Part shown: piece by piece, positions 55-19,651 of the stretch
Layout: each line of letters begins with the position of its first letter
Position numbering within the stretch: position 1 is the stretch's first letter
IMG/VR virus record: IMGVR_UViG_2563366883_000015
DNA: 19,651 nucleotides
Direction: 5' to 3' (one strand)
DNA from: a virus
Lineage: Duplodnaviria; Heunggongvirae; Uroviricota; Caudoviricetes
The notes under the pieces: model-generated
Databases searched by the model: none
Told to the model about the DNA's origin: nothing
What the model saw: the letters and a program-made list of their open reading frames with translations, nothing else
Program-made: the position numbers and the translations under genes

Positions 55-639
55 TTACTCCCTGACAGGGTTCGTAGGCCACTCAATATCAGGTGCAGTT
101 GATGTATCAACACGGTTCAGCAACACCCGATACTTTTTCCAGGCTTCCAGCAATGAGGTTTCTTCCTCCGTTGCGATTTCCAGATCCACAGCATCCTGAA
201 GTGGCGCAATATGCTCACTGGCTACCTGCATCAGGCTGTTTTTTGTTTCTTCCGCCTCTCGGATCCGGAACAGTTTTTCTGCTTCTGCATCTTTCACCCA
301 GGCTGTGCCGTTCCACTTCTGAAACTCCCCTTCCGGCGATAACCAGGTAACATTTTCCGGTAACGGACCGAGTTCAGAAATAAATAACGCGTCCCCTGAA
401 GCTACGTCATAAACCGTTTTACCCCGATGGTCTTCAACGAGATGCCACGATGCCTCATCACTGTTGAAAACAGCCACGAAGCCTGCCGGAATATCTGGCG
501 GTGCAATATCGGTACTGTTTGCTGGCAGACCTGTATGAGGCGGAATATATGCATCACCTTCACCAATAAATTCATTAGTTCCGGCCAGCAGATTATAAAT
601 TTTTATGGTCCGTGGTTGTTCACTCATTCTGAATGCCAT
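55..639 (-). CDS. tfa: Tail fibre assembly protein Tfa (lambda Tfa-like chaperone)
   Basis: 194-aa ORF beginning [24 protein letters not shown]..., recalled as near-identical to lambda Tfa. Start ATG overlaps the stf stop (TAATG). Confidence 0.9.
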
Positions 640-13641: not shown

Positions 13642-13718
13642 GCGCCCTTAGCTCAGTTGGATAGAGCAACGACCTTCTAAGTCGTGGGCCGCAGGTTCGA
13701 ATCCTGCAGGGCGCGCCA
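13642..13718 (+). tRNA. argU: tRNA-Arg (anticodon UCU), encoded CCA end; prophage attachment site
   Basis: 77 nt GCGCCCTTAGCTCAGTTGGATAGAGCAACGACCTTCTAAGTCGTGGGCCGCAGGTTCGAATCCTGCAGGGCGCGCCA with clear cloverleaf; anticodon loop CTTCTAA. Confidence 0.95.
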
Positions 13719-17335: not shown

Positions 17336-17698
17336 TTAATGACCTGCTGCGCGGAGTTTTCCGTCAGGTTCACCGGCAAGAGTCAGTAATTGTCCCTGGT
17401 CTTCCTGCAGAATAGTCAGGCGACCACCGCGATTGACATACATCGGCGTTTCGGTGGTGTCTTCTTCGGAAATTTTCCCGCGGTTAGTTGGGCGAACATA
17501 TGAGAGTTTGTGTTTGATTTTCACACGGTTCTCATCAAACGGTTCGATTTCCAGATTGAGTGAGACCTTCCCTTTGGTTTTCGTGTTCATCACACCGGAA
17601 GCGACCTCACTGAGAACTGCGCCGATTTTGGTTTCAAATACGCCGCCGTCCAGCTCCCCGATAAATGCCTGCACATCAGTACTGCGTTCGCTAGCCAT
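17336..17698 (-). CDS. yfdP: YfdP-like prophage protein
   Basis: 120 aa from ATG 17698 (MASERSTDVQAFIGELDGGVFETKIG...) with GAGGAG 7 nt upstream. The ORF track extends upstream to 17863 into GC-rich non-coding sequence. Confidence 0.6.
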   Translation of the reverse strand: MASERSTDVQAFIGELDGGVFETKIGAVLSEVASGVMNTKTKGKVSLNLEIEPFDENRVKIKHKLSYVRPTNRGKISEEDTTETPMYVNRGGRLTILQEDQGQLLTLAGEPDGKLRAAGH

Positions 17699-17739
17699 TT
17701 TGCTGCTCCTCATCATATCGACCCTGCAAGGTCGGTTGG

Positions 17740-18100
17740 TTTCTCCACAAAACAGAGAAGAACACCTGCGGTGGCAGCCGCCCGGATGGATTGGGTTATG
17801 AGCCCGTCGTCCGGTGATGCTCTTCTCTGTTTTGCAAAAAAGGACGGTACCAGCCGGAAGCAAGGGTACAAACTGGTACCGCCAGGACTACACACAGCAT
17901 AAAGTTGTGGTGCCGGGTGCCTCCCGGTGCCTGGCGAAGGTTGCACACCAGGCGGGTGGGTATCCACAGAAGGTCGACTGTCAGCCTCAACCTTAACCCG
18001 CGTGCGCTGAGCCGCATTCACCACAACGCTAAGGATTCTCTCTGGTTGAAAATACTTAGCTGTTATGTGCCTGCTTTTAGCCACATCAGGCGAGGTGGAC
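17740..18100. other. GC-rich, hairpin-dense non-coding block (candidate structured RNA or regulatory leader)
   Basis: No ORF with an RBS or sensible composition. 14-bp perfect stem CAAAACAGAGAAGA (17748-17761) / TCTTCTCTGTTTTG (17821-17834); 9-bp stem CGGTACCAG (17845-17853) / CTGGTACCG (17873-17881); further short stems. Confidence 0.35.
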
Positions 18101-18168
18101 CTGGTTATTCCCCAACAACAAGGATTCGGTTAATCTGGATATCCCCAACAACAATAAGAGTATTCAAT
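18101..18168 (+). repeat. Two tandem 34-bp imperfect direct repeats (core CTGGWTAT(T)CCCCAACAACAA) ending at the start of the downstream ORF
   Basis: R1 18101-18134 CTGGTTATTCCCCAACAACAAGGATTCGGTTAAT; R2 18135-18168 CTGGATATCCCCAACAACAATAAGAGTATTCAAT. An AGGATTC...CTGG motif also occurs at 18032-18047. Confidence 0.6.
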
Positions 18169-18684
18169 GTGATCGCTGAATTAACGGCAGCAATGACGGC
18201 TATTCGTGAAACAGCCCAGATTGCAAAACTAATGAACGAGGCAAAAACTCAAGCTGAAGTAAATGCGGCTATTGGTGAGCTGAACTCAAAGCTTGCGTCT
18301 ATTCAGCGCGAATGCGTGTCTCTCGTTGAACTGGTGGGCTCTTATCAAGAAATAAATGCTTCTCTCAAAGCTAAAATTGCAGAATTCGAAAACTTTGAGG
18401 CTCAGACGGAAGGCTATATCCTTAACCAACTTGAGTCGGGTACTTTTGTATACTCGAAGGAGGTAATCGTGAACGGTGGCAGCATAACCATGCATCTTTG
18501 CCCAAAATGTTTTGGACAAAAGATAGTATCGATACTTCAACCATTCCCGGTTAGCGAAGATGAGCTTTTTCATAAAAGCAGGTGCCTCCACTGTGAAAAT
18601 AAGTTTCTGATGAATAAAAATCCGGATTACGTATCGCCTCCATCCATTGAGGAGTTGTCCAGAAAACTTAACGGCAATCTGTAG
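18169..18684 (+). CDS. Hypothetical protein with N-terminal coiled-coil-like region and C-terminal CxxC...CxHC zinc-ribbon-like motif
   Basis: Frame open from GTG 18169 (AAGAG upstream) or ATG 18193 (MTAIRETAQIAKLMNEAKTQAEV...); stop TAG 18682-18684. Motif HLCPKCFGQK...(21 aa)...CLHCENKF. Convergent with cI. No family recognised. Confidence 0.5.
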   Translation: MIAELTAAMTAIRETAQIAKLMNEAKTQAEVNAAIGELNSKLASIQRECVSLVELVGSYQEINASLKAKIAEFENFEAQTEGYILNQLESGTFVYSKEVIVNGGSITMHLCPKCFGQKIVSILQPFPVSEDELFHKSRCLHCENKFLMNKNPDYVSPPSIEELSRKLNGNL

Positions 18685-18698
18685 ATTACTACTGTTGT

Positions 18699-18711
18699 GG
18701 ATATCCAGATT
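18699..18711. repeat. Right-hand inverted copy (GGATATCCAGATT) of a 13-nt sequence found in repeat R2 (AATCTGGATATCC, 18132-18144)
   Basis: Perfect 13/13 reverse-complement match, with similar ACAACA flank. The two sites bracket the ORF from ~25 nt before its start to 15 nt after its stop. Confidence 0.6.
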
Positions 18712-18722
18712 GCTAAAGAGCT

Positions 18723-18748
18723 AAGCGTCCTGTAGGGCGCTTTTTTGT
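18723..18748 (+). terminator. Rho-independent terminator for the zinc-ribbon ORF
   Basis: AAGCGTCC-TGTA-GGGCGCTT stem (one G-U pair) followed by TTTTTTG on the plus strand. Confidence 0.55.
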
Positions 18749-18912
18749 TGCTAACGAATCATCCTGGACTTCATATGCCCCAGGCGGCTACTTCGTGGGC
18801 GTCCTGCCTGTTCGTTTTTGACATTTACTGACTGCTTACGACACATGCACCGTGTTGCAACCAGATTTTGTTGTAATCCTGTAGTTGGTCTGGAACAAAA
18901 GATAAAATTAAA

Positions 18913-18949
18913 TTGCGAGATATGCAAGTGATATTTGCGAGGTATGCAA
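18913..18949. promoter_or_regulatory. Pair of 15-bp direct repeats TTGCGAGATATGCAA / TTGCGAGGTATGCAA, 22-bp period (operator-like)
   Basis: 14/15 identical copies at 18913-18927 and 18935-18949, each with inverted TTGC/GCAA ends, in the gap between the two convergent terminators downstream of cI. Confidence 0.35.
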
Positions 18950-18960
18950 ATTTATAGGTA

Positions 18961-18983
18961 GTAAAAAGCCACCTTTCGGTGGC
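18961..18983 (-). terminator. Rho-independent terminator downstream of the cI-type repressor gene
   Basis: GCCACC-TTTC-GGTGGC hairpin (18968-18983), followed on the minus strand by a T-tract (plus-strand AAAAA 18963-18967), 20 nt after the repressor stop. Confidence 0.5.
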
Positions 18984-19003
18984 CGATGGATGGGATATTG
19001 AGG

Positions 19004-19651
19004 TTAATTATGTCTCTTAAGGGTTTGCGACTGACTGATTAAGACCTTTCCAAAGACCATGAATCGGTGTTCGTTTTCGCTAGTAATTCCCCATTCACGG
19101 TAAATCTGGTTATCAGAAATCACCAGCAGTTTGTCAGGAATCATTTGAAGTCTTTTAACGTATATTTTGTCATCAAAACCAAAGACATATATACCATCAC
19201 CATCAAACTGATTGATGCTGACATCAACGAAGATGAGATCTCCTGGCTCAATGGTTGGACACATACTGTCCCCACGAACGTTGATAACTTTGATGTGATT
19301 GGCTGGTCGTCCGCCGAACATTGATACAGCATTATCAGTTCTGTATTCGATGGCATGAATCACATCAATGACATCACCGCCCTGGATAAGGCCATTTCCC
19401 GCACTGGCACTGATATCCAGCATTTCAATACGGAACACATCCTTCACCTGCGCAACATCCTCATTATTACTGTTTTTATATACAGTATTACTTTTGTGGG
19501 CAGAGGTAAAGAGATCAGCAATATCAACACCTAAGCTCTTGGCAATATTACTCAGTGTTTGTTCGGTAAATTGTTTTTGCTTACCCGTTTCTAAGCGCGA
19601 GATGTTCGCCGCATCTACTCCTATTGCTTCAGCGAGATCGGCGATTTTCAT
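19004..19651 (-). CDS. CI-type prophage repressor (HTH plus LexA-like S24 autopeptidase domain); N-terminus probably beyond the window edge
   Basis: HTH segment IADLAEAIGVDAANISRLETGK; Ala-Gly cleavage site in SASAGNG; S24 motifs VRGDSMCPTIEPGDLIFVD and YVKRL. The frame reaches the window end, and the HTH appears to lack its first helix. Confidence 0.85.
   Translation of the reverse strand: MKIADLAEAIGVDAANISRLETGKQKQFTEQTLSNIAKSLGVDIADLFTSAHKSNTVYKNSNNEDVAQVKDVFRIEMLDISASAGNGLIQGGDVIDVIHAIEYRTDNAVSMFGGRPANHIKVINVRGDSMCPTIEPGDLIFVDVSINQFDGDGIYVFGFDDKIYVKRLQMIPDKLLVISDNQIYREWGITSENEHRFMVFGKVLISQSQTLKRHN

What the first reader, a model, noticed from the sequence alone, without database searches (positions are those of the whole stretch)
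18101..18750. Single-gene cassette bracketed by a perfect 13-nt inverted repeat, preceded by tandem 34-bp repeats, between the repressor and the early-left operon
The ~170-aa zinc-ribbon ORF (18169-18684) is convergent with cI and has its own terminator. It is immediately preceded by two tandem 34-bp repeats. A 13-nt sequence from repeat 2 (AATCTGGATATCC, 18132-18144) recurs as a perfect reverse complement 15 nt after the stop codon (18699-18711), so the ORF is bracketed by inverted repeats ~555 bp apart. The position (between the immunity repressor and the early-left genes) is where lambda carries rexAB and other phages carry exclusion or defence genes. I could not assign the protein to any family. 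The repeats could be recombination sites of an invertible or mobile cassette, or binding sites for the ORF product.
Basis: partly seen in the sequence, partly recalled or inferred. Interest (0 to 1): 0.75.

Follow-up and report, generated by a model that had tools for sequence, protein, structure and literature searches.

The report
Rip1-like phage-defence gene in swappable cassette
The unassigned 171-residue gene is a distant relative of Rip1, a recently described prophage protein that kills infected cells by forming a pore, and its flanking repeats belong to a conserved slot that holds different small genes in different prophages.

Summary
There is a 171-aa ORF at 18169-18684 with its own terminator. 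A 13-nt perfect inverted repeat extends to 26 nt at 85%. A 13-nt exact direct repeat lies upstream, but the "34-bp tandem units" are only 69% alike.

The protein is no longer unassigned. A family profile hits PDB 9oox (phage HK446 Rip1 bound to T6 small terminase) at E = 4e-20. The AF2 model (pLDDT 91.6) matches that structure in Foldseek with probability 1.0. The ORF is about 28-29% identical to HK620 HkaP and to P. aeruginosa JBD30 gp30.

The repeats do not belong to this ORF. In protein-retrieved loci from other Enterobacterales genera, the 100-nt leader and the trailer are more conserved (74-92% and mostly 77-86%) than the gene (61-69% nt). The same bracket, AATCTGGATATCC...GGATATCCAGATT, encloses at least six unrelated cargo types in one fixed orientation. 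This rules out inversion sites and binding sites for the ORF product.

I read the locus as a Rip1-family abortive-infection gene in a conserved moron slot between the immunity region and the early-left genes. Cargo is exchanged at or next to the repeats. The role of the inverted repeat itself is unresolved. Overall: a new member of a known protein family inside a cassette architecture I could not find described.

The parts
18069..18098 (.). Conserved upstream element GCCTG..CCAC.TCAGGC..GGTGG. It is the left edge of the module and is shared even by prophages that carry other slot contents.
   Evidence: The blocks are invariant in 16 protein-retrieved loci. The element is present in 91 of 103 loci. 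Homology with e14, L004 and L006 ends at 18098. Variants break the possible pairs rather than compensating for them.
18102..18135 (+). Direct-repeat unit 1 (core TCCCCAACAACAA, 18109-18121). It is part of the conserved leader outside the cargo.
   Evidence: It is present upstream of most cargo types, in 93 of 103 loci.
18132..18157 (+). Left arm of the inverted repeat (perfect core 18132-18144). It overlaps direct-repeat unit 2 (core 18142-18154).
   Evidence: The core is invariant or nearly so across genera and cargo types. Cargo-specific sequence starts 0-10 nt after it.
18156..18171 (+). Shine-Dalgarno-like AAGAG (18156-18160) and the GTG start codon (18169-18171).
   Evidence: The GAG block and the GTGATCGCTGAA start are conserved in 14 of 16 loci. 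The RefSeq CDS start agrees.
18169..18684 (+). Rip1-family gene (171 aa): an N-terminal helical hairpin (residues 2-79) followed by a C-terminal Cys4 beta/zinc-ribbon domain (84-150).
   Evidence: phrog_1244 at E = 9e-60. PDB 9oox Rip1: phmmer 2.7e-7 and profile 4e-20. AF2 pLDDT 91.6. Foldseek probability 1.0 to 9oox_L and 9oox_M. BLASTP to JBD30 gp30 at 9e-20 and to HK620 HkaP at 1e-21.
18686..18711 (+). Right arm of the inverted repeat (perfect core 18699-18711), starting 2 nt after the stop codon.
   Evidence: It is conserved in protein-retrieved loci of other genera. In many cargo types the stop codon TAG abuts GGATATCC.
18710..18721 (-). boxA-like 12-mer on the strand read by the leftward early promoter. 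It reads GCTCTTTAGCAA here and GCTCTTTAACAA in most relatives.
   Evidence: An exact 12-mer lies on the minus strand directly after the cassette in 13 of 23 loci then held, and a 1-mismatch version in 5 more. It is the only copy in the complete 45-kb phage PhiR49_1. In this window alone it is not significant: 21 of 200 shuffles match. Its identity with the rrn boxA core is from memory.
18723..18748 (+). Intrinsic terminator of the cassette: an 8-bp stem, a 4-nt loop and a T run.
   Evidence: The stem GCGTCC/GGGCGC has a U.G pair on the plus strand but an A.C mismatch on the minus strand, so the plus-strand terminator is the selected reading.

Best explanation
The ORF is a prophage-encoded member of the Rip1 ('ring interacting pore') family of single-protein abortive-infection defences.

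By homology, the C-terminal Cys4 beta domain would dock onto a ring-shaped oligomer made late by a superinfecting phage, either the small terminase or the portal. The N-terminal helices of a roughly 12-mer ring would then form an inner-membrane pore that kills the cell before progeny mature. The homology and the fold are shown here. The trigger, the oligomer and the pore are inferred.

The gene is the cargo of a conserved moron cassette at 18100-18750. The cassette lies between the pL/operator region of the immunity module and the early-left genes, and it is antisense to leftward early transcription. It supplies three things:
1. A roughly 100-nt leader that ends in ...TAATCTGGATATCCCCAAC, just upstream of whichever cargo Shine-Dalgarno sequence and start codon follows.
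2. A trailer, GGATATCCAGATTGTTAAAGAGC, plus an intrinsic terminator.
3. A 13-20-nt inverted repeat formed by the inner ends of leader and trailer.

Cargo genes are exchanged between prophages at or next to these repeats. The repeats are therefore properties of the slot, not of Rip1. What the inverted repeat does is not settled. My leading guesses are that the two arms pair in a transcript that spans both, closing the cargo into a loop, or that both arms are recognised by one sequence-specific factor. They are not DNA inversion sites.
For: Protein:
- phmmer against PDB gives 9oox_L Rip1 at E = 2.7e-7, with both CxxC pairs aligned.
- A 47-sequence family profile gives E = 4e-20, 75 bits, positions 5-152 against 15-160 of 164.
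- The AF2 model has pLDDT 91.6.
- Foldseek top hits are 9oox_L and 9oox_M, 'phage HK446 Rip1 + T6 small terminase', probability 1.0, TM 0.53-0.70 on the target, 28% identity. The next hit has E = 0.18.
- Full-length collinear BLASTP alignments to JBD30 gp30 (29%, 9e-20) and HK620 HkaP (28%, 1e-21).
- JBD30 gp30 lies antisense between a DNA-binding protein and TerL. This matches the published location of P. aeruginosa Rip1 (PMC13434031, section 5).
- HK620 hkaP is annotated as a putative superinfection exclusion gene and is antisense within the pL operon.
- The superfamily has 2749 50%-identity cluster representatives at E <= 1e-3. The 150 best listed are mostly 145-180 aa.

Cassette:
- In the 12 more distant protein-retrieved loci, the leader is 74-92% identical and the trailer mostly 77-86% (two at 61% and 67%). 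The ORF is 61-69% identical at nucleotide level and 44-62% at protein level.
- The bracket encloses at least six cargo types. These are Rip1-like (37-99% identical), ECs1072 family, a 98-aa protein, a three-gene set with a 2-TM protein, a 160-aa multi-TM protein and an 87-aa protein.
- Breakpoints against E. coli relatives fall at 18152/18705 and at 18098/18750-18753.
- The arm motif occurs only at the cassette in a complete 45-kb phage.
- ViennaRNA places the arm-arm stem in the MFE, with 11.3-12.9 of 13 expected pairs, on both strands, for 14 cassettes.
Against: - Nothing here shows expression. The sigma-70 scan found no promoter in 17600-19651 on either strand, and I could not identify a convincing -35/-10 pair in the leader by eye.
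- Identity to characterised Rip1 proteins is only 28-29%, so the trigger specificity and even the pore mechanism may differ.
- N-terminal amphipathicity is modest (muH 0.27-0.44).
- PADLOC 2.0 (2023) and Pfam give no hit, which is expected for a family described in 2026.
- For the stem idea: the 13-bp core shows no compensatory change in 46 distinct arm pairs, and variants give mismatches. The conservation therefore looks sequence-specific rather than pairing-specific.
- No empty site was found.
- Most cargo-diversity loci were retrieved with the exact right-arm motif, so right-arm invariance in that set comes from the search itself. Only loci L008-L023 are unbiased.
Confidence: 0.72

Rival explanations
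1. The inverted repeat and the boxA-like 12-mer work on the antisense (pL) transcript. The sequence hairpin, GCUCUUUAACAA, 5' arm, about 530 nt of untranslated antisense cargo, 3' arm would resemble an rrn leader. There, Nus-factor antitermination protects a long untranslated RNA from Rho, and a long-range stem encloses it, possibly as an RNase III site. In this reading the cassette carries its own device to let early-left transcription cross it.
For: - The 12-mer abuts the right arm on the minus strand in nearly all cassettes, including the L002 type, whose downstream hairpin is different.
- It occurs once in the 45-kb phage, roughly 170-180 nt downstream of the candidate pL.
- Slot variants that lack the module (e14 ymfJ; the 91-aa ORF of L004 and L006) carry ORFs co-directional with pL, so they leave no long untranslated stretch.
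- No N-like gene is annotated in PhiR49_1.
- In this window, three of the four mismatches in the 26-nt arms become G.U pairs on the minus strand.
- The minus-strand duplex is more stable in 38 of 53 unique arm pairs.
- The stem is predicted on the minus strand for all 14 cassettes tested.
Against: - The minus-strand advantage is confounded, because the complement of CCCCAACAAC is G/U-rich, and the pairs are not phylogenetically independent.
- The hairpin upstream of the 12-mer is better formed on the plus strand.
- The boxA identity rests on my memory of the rrn consensus.
- The window copy has one mismatch and is not significant alone.
- There is no covariation in the core.
- pL itself is inferred from operator-like repeats and was not called by the scan.
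Confidence: 0.2
2. The arms are target sites of a site-specific recombination system that inserts, excises or swaps cassettes, in the manner of an integron or of insertion into a palindromic target with an 8-bp duplication.
For: - Cargo boundaries coincide with the inner edges of the arms across unrelated cargo. In the L063 type this holds even though the sequence left of the arm is also unrelated.
- GGATATCC is a palindrome present at both ends, and AATCT/AGATT flank it, as if an 18-bp palindrome had been split.
- The inner extensions CCCYAAC/GTTRGGG resemble integron RYYYAAC/GTTRRRY at 6 of 7 positions (from memory).
Against: - No recombinase other than the prophage integrase, about 4 kb away, lies nearby.
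- No empty or near-empty site is found in 2.9 million viral contigs.
- The left junction is not at one fixed nucleotide: it falls after GGATATCC in two cargo types and after CCCCAAC(AAC) in the others.
- All instances found (retrieved via the trailer motif or the protein) keep the same trailer, and 93 of 103 loci with enough flanking sequence keep the same leader.
- Orientation never varies.
Confidence: 0.12
3. The repeats are operator sites for the ORF product (autoregulation), or the locus is a type III toxin-antitoxin system with repeats upstream of a roughly 170-aa toxin.
For: Repeats lie immediately upstream of the ORF. ToxN-like toxins are of similar size (from memory).
Against: - The same repeats flank unrelated cargo.
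- There are only two imperfect copies (69%), and TRF reports nothing.
- No terminator lies between the repeats and the ORF.
- There is no ToxN/Abi hit in Pfam or PADLOC.
- The protein is confidently Rip1-like.
Confidence: 0.02
4. The repeats have no function of their own. They are conserved only as part of shared expression signals and as homology arms for Red/Erf-type recombination, and the inverted symmetry is a historical accident.
For: - Mosaic breakpoints fall at several nested positions: 18061, 18098, 18152 on the left and 18705, 18721, 18750 on the right.
- There is no covariation.
- Lambdoid 'boundary sequences' are a known idea (from memory: the HK620 genome paper).
Against: - The 13-nt arms are the most invariant blocks of both flanks.
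- They persist when everything outside them differs on the left, as in the L063 type.
- A perfect inverted repeat of 13 nt or more is rare by chance, 2 of 500 shuffles, and the same symmetry is kept across genera.
Confidence: 0.2

Closest known systems
Rip1 (ring interacting pore 1): P. aeruginosa JBD-type prophages and Escherichia phage HK446; PDB 9oox; Patel et al. 2026, Nature 651:1060, as summarised in PMC13434031
   Same: Similar size (164 against 171 aa). N-terminal helices followed by a C-terminal beta domain with two CxxC pairs. Full-length collinear homology (profile E = 4e-20). Fold match with Foldseek probability 1.0. A single prophage gene, antisense to its neighbours.
   Different: Only 28-29% identity. 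It belongs to a separate subfamily (phrog_1244). It sits next to the immunity region rather than between the terminase genes (JBD30) or between N and cIII (HK620). Neither the trigger nor any activity has been tested.
HK620 hkaP / HK629-HK630 HkaP (annotated as a putative superinfection exclusion protein)
   Same: A Rip1-type protein encoded antisense inside the leftward early operon of a lambdoid phage, with terminators annotated around it.
   Different: Only internal, imperfect inverted repeats, not a bracket around the ORF; boxA was not scanned for at hkaP. That phage has N and nutL, which this one does not appear to have.
Lambdoid morons and exclusion genes beside the immunity region (lambda rexAB, sieB), and defence hotspots with conserved flanks in P2/P4 (from memory)
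   Same: A fixed genomic position with variable accessory or defence cargo, presumably expressed from the prophage, with its own terminator.
   Different: Here the flanks are a conserved roughly 100-nt leader and a roughly 50-nt trailer that form a 13-20-nt inverted repeat. The cargo is swapped almost exactly from start codon to stop codon.
rrn and CRISPR-array boxA antitermination elements (from memory)
   Same: A 12-mer identical to GCUCUUUAACAA, preceded by a hairpin and followed by a long untranslated RNA. In rrn operons a long-range stem encloses that RNA.
   Different: Function here is untested. The element lies on the strand antisense to the cargo, and no boxC was identified.
Integron gene cassettes and invertible segments (Gin/Cin/Hin)
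   Same: Short inverted repeats mark the ends of an exchangeable gene-sized segment.
   Different: There is no IntI or invertase. The two repeats are about 550 bp apart rather than within one attC site. Orientation is fixed, and no circular or empty forms were seen.

Membership tests
Rip1 family | Sequence homology to an experimentally characterised Rip1 | tested here: met
   phmmer 2.7e-7 and profile 4e-20 against 9oox_L. BLASTP 9e-20 to JBD30 gp30 and 1e-21 to HK620 HkaP.
Rip1 family | Same fold as the solved Rip1 chain | tested here: met
   The AF2 model (pLDDT 91.6) matches 9oox_L and 9oox_M in Foldseek at E = 5e-7 to 8e-7, probability 1.0, TM on target 0.53-0.70. No other hit is below E = 0.1.
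Rip1 family | C-terminal domain with two CxxC pairs | tested here: met
   C111, C114, C139 and C142 are invariant in 47 homologues and align with the cysteines of 9oox, JBD30 gp30 and HkaP.
Rip1 family | N-terminal amphipathic helix that forms the pore | tested here: inconclusive
   Helices 2-24 and 28-79 are predicted. The hydrophobic moment is only 0.27-0.44 in the first 50 residues.
Rip1 family | Activation by ring-shaped phage oligomers (small terminase or portal), 12-mer assembly, membrane permeabilisation | not testable with these tools
   Known only from the literature summary (PMC13434031, section 5; PMC13601566).
Rip1 family | Single gene in a prophage context | tested here: met
   The locus is a lambdoid prophage at argU. 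The ORF is 99.4% identical to that of phages PhiR49_1 and PhiR29 (host ECOR13).
Invertible DNA segment | Segment found in both orientations, with an invertase nearby | tested here: not met
   Cargo is co-oriented with the leader in all of roughly 110 cassettes. No invertase is annotated.
IS/MITE-type mobile element | Empty target sites, copies at unrelated loci, or a transposase | tested here: not met
   No empty or near-empty site is found in IMG/VR. The motif occurs only at this slot in a whole phage. There is no transposase.
Type III toxin-antitoxin (ToxIN-like) | An array of near-identical tandem repeats, then a terminator, then a ToxN-family toxin | tested here: not met
   Two units at 69% identity, and TRF reports nothing. 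There is no ToxN hit. The repeats are also present with other cargo.
Integron cassette | IntI integrase and a compact attC site | tested here: not met
   There is no IntI in the prophage. The repeats lie about 550 bp apart, one on each side of the gene.

The most novel reading that the evidence does not exclude
The 13-20-nt inverted repeat and the adjacent boxA-like 12-mer form a portable insulation module. It would let a prophage keep a defence gene antisense inside its early-left transcription unit. On the pL transcript, boxA would recruit Nus factors to prevent Rho termination across about 1.2 kb of untranslated RNA, and the arms would close the antisense cargo into a loop, possibly an RNase III site. 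The same conserved arms would act as a universal docking site at which unrelated cargo genes are exchanged. If so, the other five or more uncharacterised cargo families in this slot are candidate new defence or exclusion genes.
Probability: 0.15. Interest if true: 0.8.

Novelty: new variant of a known kind. Interest (0 to 1): 0.5.

Why it matters
- It gives a functional hypothesis to a gene annotated as 'hypothetical'. At least 80% of the 1.3-kb query spanning it is present in 372 of 5426 complete E. coli genomes. It also extends the Rip1 family into a distinct enterobacterial subfamily.
- It defines a conserved, easily searchable bracket that marks a cargo slot in prophages of many Enterobacterales genera. 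The other cargo families found in that slot have no Pfam or PADLOC assignment, so they are cheap candidates for new defence or exclusion functions.
- If the inverted repeat and the boxA-like motif prove functional, they would show how a prophage reconciles an antisense defence gene with its own early transcription.

Tried and rejected
- **Uninformative family searches.** Pfam, PADLOC and NCBIfam gave only weak coiled-coil noise for the ORF.
- **Rfam.** At gathering thresholds there was no RNA family in 18000-18800. The permissive scan gave only a sub-threshold STnc100 hit to the left of the cassette.
- **HK022 put-like antiterminator RNA.** I considered this for 17834-18057. blastn against phages does not hit HK022, and the put paper gave no matching sequence. 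Dropped.
- **AgvB/GcvB-type anti-sRNA.** The C/A-rich repeats prompted this idea. AgvB lies at the PR' moron site, not here, and there is no Rfam AgvB hit. It remains only a speculation that CAACAACAA could be a GcvB/Hfq-type target.
- **RNA pseudoknot in GCCTG..CCAC..CAGGC..GTGG.** Variants break the pairs instead of compensating for them. Not supported.
- **Empty-site searches.** Both were negative.
- **Promoter search.** It found no sigma-70-like site, and inspecting the leader by eye gave nothing convincing.
- **Original Rip1 paper.** It is not in the library. Searching for 'HK446' gave nothing relevant.
- **DnaA-box resemblance.** ATATCCACA in the right arm exists only in the E. coli variant. 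Dismissed.
Full report
**Context.** The window carries tRNA-Arg(UCU) at 13642-13715. A lambdoid prophage follows it, and identical copies in RefSeq are annotated in this order: intD, yfdT, a phage protein, yfdR, yfdQ, yfdP (all on the minus strand), a 'frameshifted hypothetical', the ORF in question (WP_000559922.1, hypothetical), then an XRE/S24 repressor, a Cro-like gene and ymfL. Part of the 1.3-kb interval 17700-19000 is found in 3045 of 5426 complete E. coli genomes, and at least 80% of it in 372. A 99.4% identical ORF is present in the complete phages PhiR49_1 and PhiR29 (host ECOR13).

**Observation.** The ORF, its convergence with the repressor and its terminator are all real. The inverted repeat is longer than reported: 26 nt at 85% complementarity around the 13-nt perfect core. 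A perfect inverted repeat of 13 nt or more occurred in 2 of 500 shuffles of 17700-18900. A 13-nt direct repeat within 60 nt occurred in none. The 'tandem 34-bp repeats' are weaker than described. They share a 13-nt exact core 33 nt apart, the full units are 69% identical with two gaps, and TRF does not call them.

**The protein.**
- Pfam, PADLOC (2023) and NCBIfam give nothing meaningful, and PHROGs places the protein in phrog_1244, function unknown.
- A sequence search of PDB chains returns 9oox_L, 'ring interacting pore 1 (Rip1)', at E = 2.7e-7 over residues 14-150, with both CxxC pairs aligned.
- A profile built from 47 homologues (41-93% identical to the window ORF) raises this to E = 4e-20 over essentially the full length.
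- The AlphaFold2 model (pLDDT 91.6) has a helical hairpin at residues 2-79 and a beta-rich domain at 84-150.
- Its only significant Foldseek matches in the PDB are the two Rip1 chains of 9oox, 'Escherichia phage HK446 Rip1 in complex with T6 small terminase'. Probability is 1.0, and the next hit has E = 0.18.
- tblastn and BLASTP link the ORF, at 28-29% identity and full length, to HK620/HK629/HK630 HkaP and to gp30 of P. aeruginosa phage JBD30 and its relatives.
- JBD30 gp30 lies antisense between a DNA-binding protein and the large terminase. This matches the published location of Rip1.
- According to a review of Patel et al. 2026 (PMC13434031, section 5; also PMC13601566, PMC12908700), Rip1 is non-toxic alone. 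It is triggered by phage portal or small-terminase rings, assembles as a 12-mer around an 11-mer terminase ring, uses an N-terminal amphipathic helix to form a pore, and causes premature death of the infected cell.
- The profile finds 2749 cluster representatives at E <= 1e-3 in 1.84 billion proteins. The 150 best listed are mostly 145-180 aa.

The ORF is therefore a new, divergent member of a known family. Its activity is inferred, not shown.

**The repeats belong to the slot, not to the gene.** Loci retrieved by protein similarity alone come from Citrobacter, Kosakonia, Scandinavium, Symbiopectobacterium, Izhakiella, Trabulsiella, Edwardsiella, Enterobacter and others. In the 12 more distant ones compared, the proteins are 44-62% identical and the ORFs 61-69% identical at nucleotide level. 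The 100 nt upstream are nevertheless 74-92% identical, and the roughly 50-nt trailer mostly 77-86% (two loci at 61% and 67%). Column conservation shows the most invariant blocks to be CCAC.TCAGGC, GTGG, ATTCCCCAAC, TAATCTGGAT.TCCCCAAC, and CAGATTGTTAAAGAGC.

A scan of IMG/VR with the trailer motif returned 120 loci. In these and in E. coli genomes, the same bracket encloses at least six unrelated cargo types:
- Rip1-like genes, 37-99% identical to the window ORF.
- The ECs1072 family.
- A 98-aa distant ECs1072-like protein.
- A three-gene set: a Pro-rich peptide, a 152-172-aa 2-TM protein and a second peptide.
- A 160-aa multi-TM protein whose sequence left of the arm is also unrelated.
- An 87-aa protein.

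None of these has a Pfam or PADLOC assignment. Conserved sequence runs up to ...GGATATCC(CCAAC), and the cargo Shine-Dalgarno sequence and start codon follow within 10-25 nt. On the right, the cargo stop codon (often TAG) abuts GGATATCC.

Against E. coli relatives, breakpoints fall at 18152 and 18705, inside the repeats, for ECs1072 cargo. For e14 (ymfI/ymfJ) and a 91-aa minus-strand ORF they fall at 18098 and 18750-18753, the outer limits of the module. An O157:H7 prophage at potC carries 18061-18721 at 93.5% identity in a different backbone. The arm motif, the CCCCAACAACAA repeat and the 12-mer occur nowhere else in the 45-kb phage PhiR49_1.

**What the repeats are not.**
- Not binding sites for the ORF product, because they are independent of the cargo.
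- Not inversion sites, because cargo orientation is constant in roughly 110 cassettes and there is no invertase.
- Not a type III TA array.
- Not a typical IS or MITE: there are no empty sites, no other locations and no transposase.

**What they might be.** ViennaRNA predicts that any transcript spanning both arms, on either strand, closes them into a stem. The stem is in the MFE, with 11.3-12.9 of 13 expected pairs, for 14 cassettes covering at least six cargo types. However, the 13-bp core shows no compensatory substitution in 46 distinct arm pairs. The few variants create mismatches. Changes on both sides occur only in the inner extension, and mostly in one clade. This points to sequence-specific conservation, or to very recent spread of the flanks, rather than a pure pairing constraint.

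On the strand read from the candidate pL, the trailer reads hairpin, then GCUCUUUAACAA, then the arm. The pL assignment rests on operator-like repeats TTGCGAGrTATGCAA at 18913-18927 and 18935-18949. The 12-mer equals the rrn boxA core as I recall it. It is exact in 13 of 23 loci then held, with a 1-mismatch version in 5 more, and it is kept even where the adjacent hairpin differs. A leftward transcript would cross about 1.2 kb without an obvious translated gene before reaching yfdP, so an anti-Rho element there is plausible. Slot variants that lack the module carry ORFs co-directional with pL. This is inference. In this window the 12-mer has one mismatch and is not significant on its own.

The minus-strand duplex is more stable in 38 of 53 unique arm pairs. 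G/U-rich composition and shared ancestry confound that result. The terminator stem carries a U.G pair on the plus strand, so its plus-strand role is the one under selection.

**Verdict.** The claim that the protein has no family is overturned. The repeats are real, non-random and conserved, but they define a shared cassette slot. No promoter was identified and no expression data were available.

Noticed in passing
17834-18057 (-): A sub-threshold but full-length match to the Rfam sRNA family STnc100 (40.3 bits against a gathering score of 47, E = 6e-7). It overlaps the ymfH-like pseudo-ORF that PGAP marks as frameshifted. It ends in a hairpin plus U run just upstream of yfdP. The same element is present in phages SfII, SfIV, ST64B and phiES15. 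A 2026 preprint relates STnc100 to the PasD prophage sRNAs.
   Followed up: partly
18763-18784: A hairpin in the presumed pL leader whose 5-bp stem changes in a compensatory way between genera: CCTGG/CCAGG here, CCCCA/TGGGG in L009, CCGGT/ACCGG in L019, and CCCGG/CCGGG in L022. It is a candidate structured RNA element and is conserved in e14 as well.
   Followed up: no
18913-18927 and 18935-18949: Two near-identical 15-bp palindrome-like sites, TTGCGAGrTATGCAA, just left of the repressor terminator (18967-18984, minus strand). They are probably oL operators overlapping a leftward promoter, which the strict consensus scan did not call.
   Followed up: no
18710-18721 (-): A 12-mer matching the rrn boxA core with one mismatch here and exactly in most related cassettes. 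It occurs only once in the complete phage PhiR49_1.
   Followed up: partly
18286-18591 (-): A 101-aa antisense ORF inside the Rip1-like gene, in phase with the sense codons. ORFs of similar length (93-124 aa) appear in diverged homologues. This is probably the usual artefact caused by rare TTA, CTA and TCA sense codons.
   Followed up: no
18674-18681 with 18706-18713: A local 8-bp pairing, GCAATCTG/CAGATTGC, spans the stop codon and competes with the long-range arm pairing. It is specific to the E. coli variant of the gene.
   Followed up: no
L035, L086, L099, L103 (cassette cargo): An alternative cargo is a three-gene set: a roughly 30-aa peptide (..DYEERHMPPFKRPEPP..), a 152-172-aa protein with two TM helices, and a second Pro-rich peptide. 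None has a Pfam, PADLOC or NCBIfam hit. It is a candidate membrane-acting exclusion system.
   Followed up: partly
98-296 (-) and 13642-13715 (+): An IS009 RNA family hit (225.8 bits), and the tRNA-Arg(UCU) gene that serves as the prophage attachment site.
   Followed up: no
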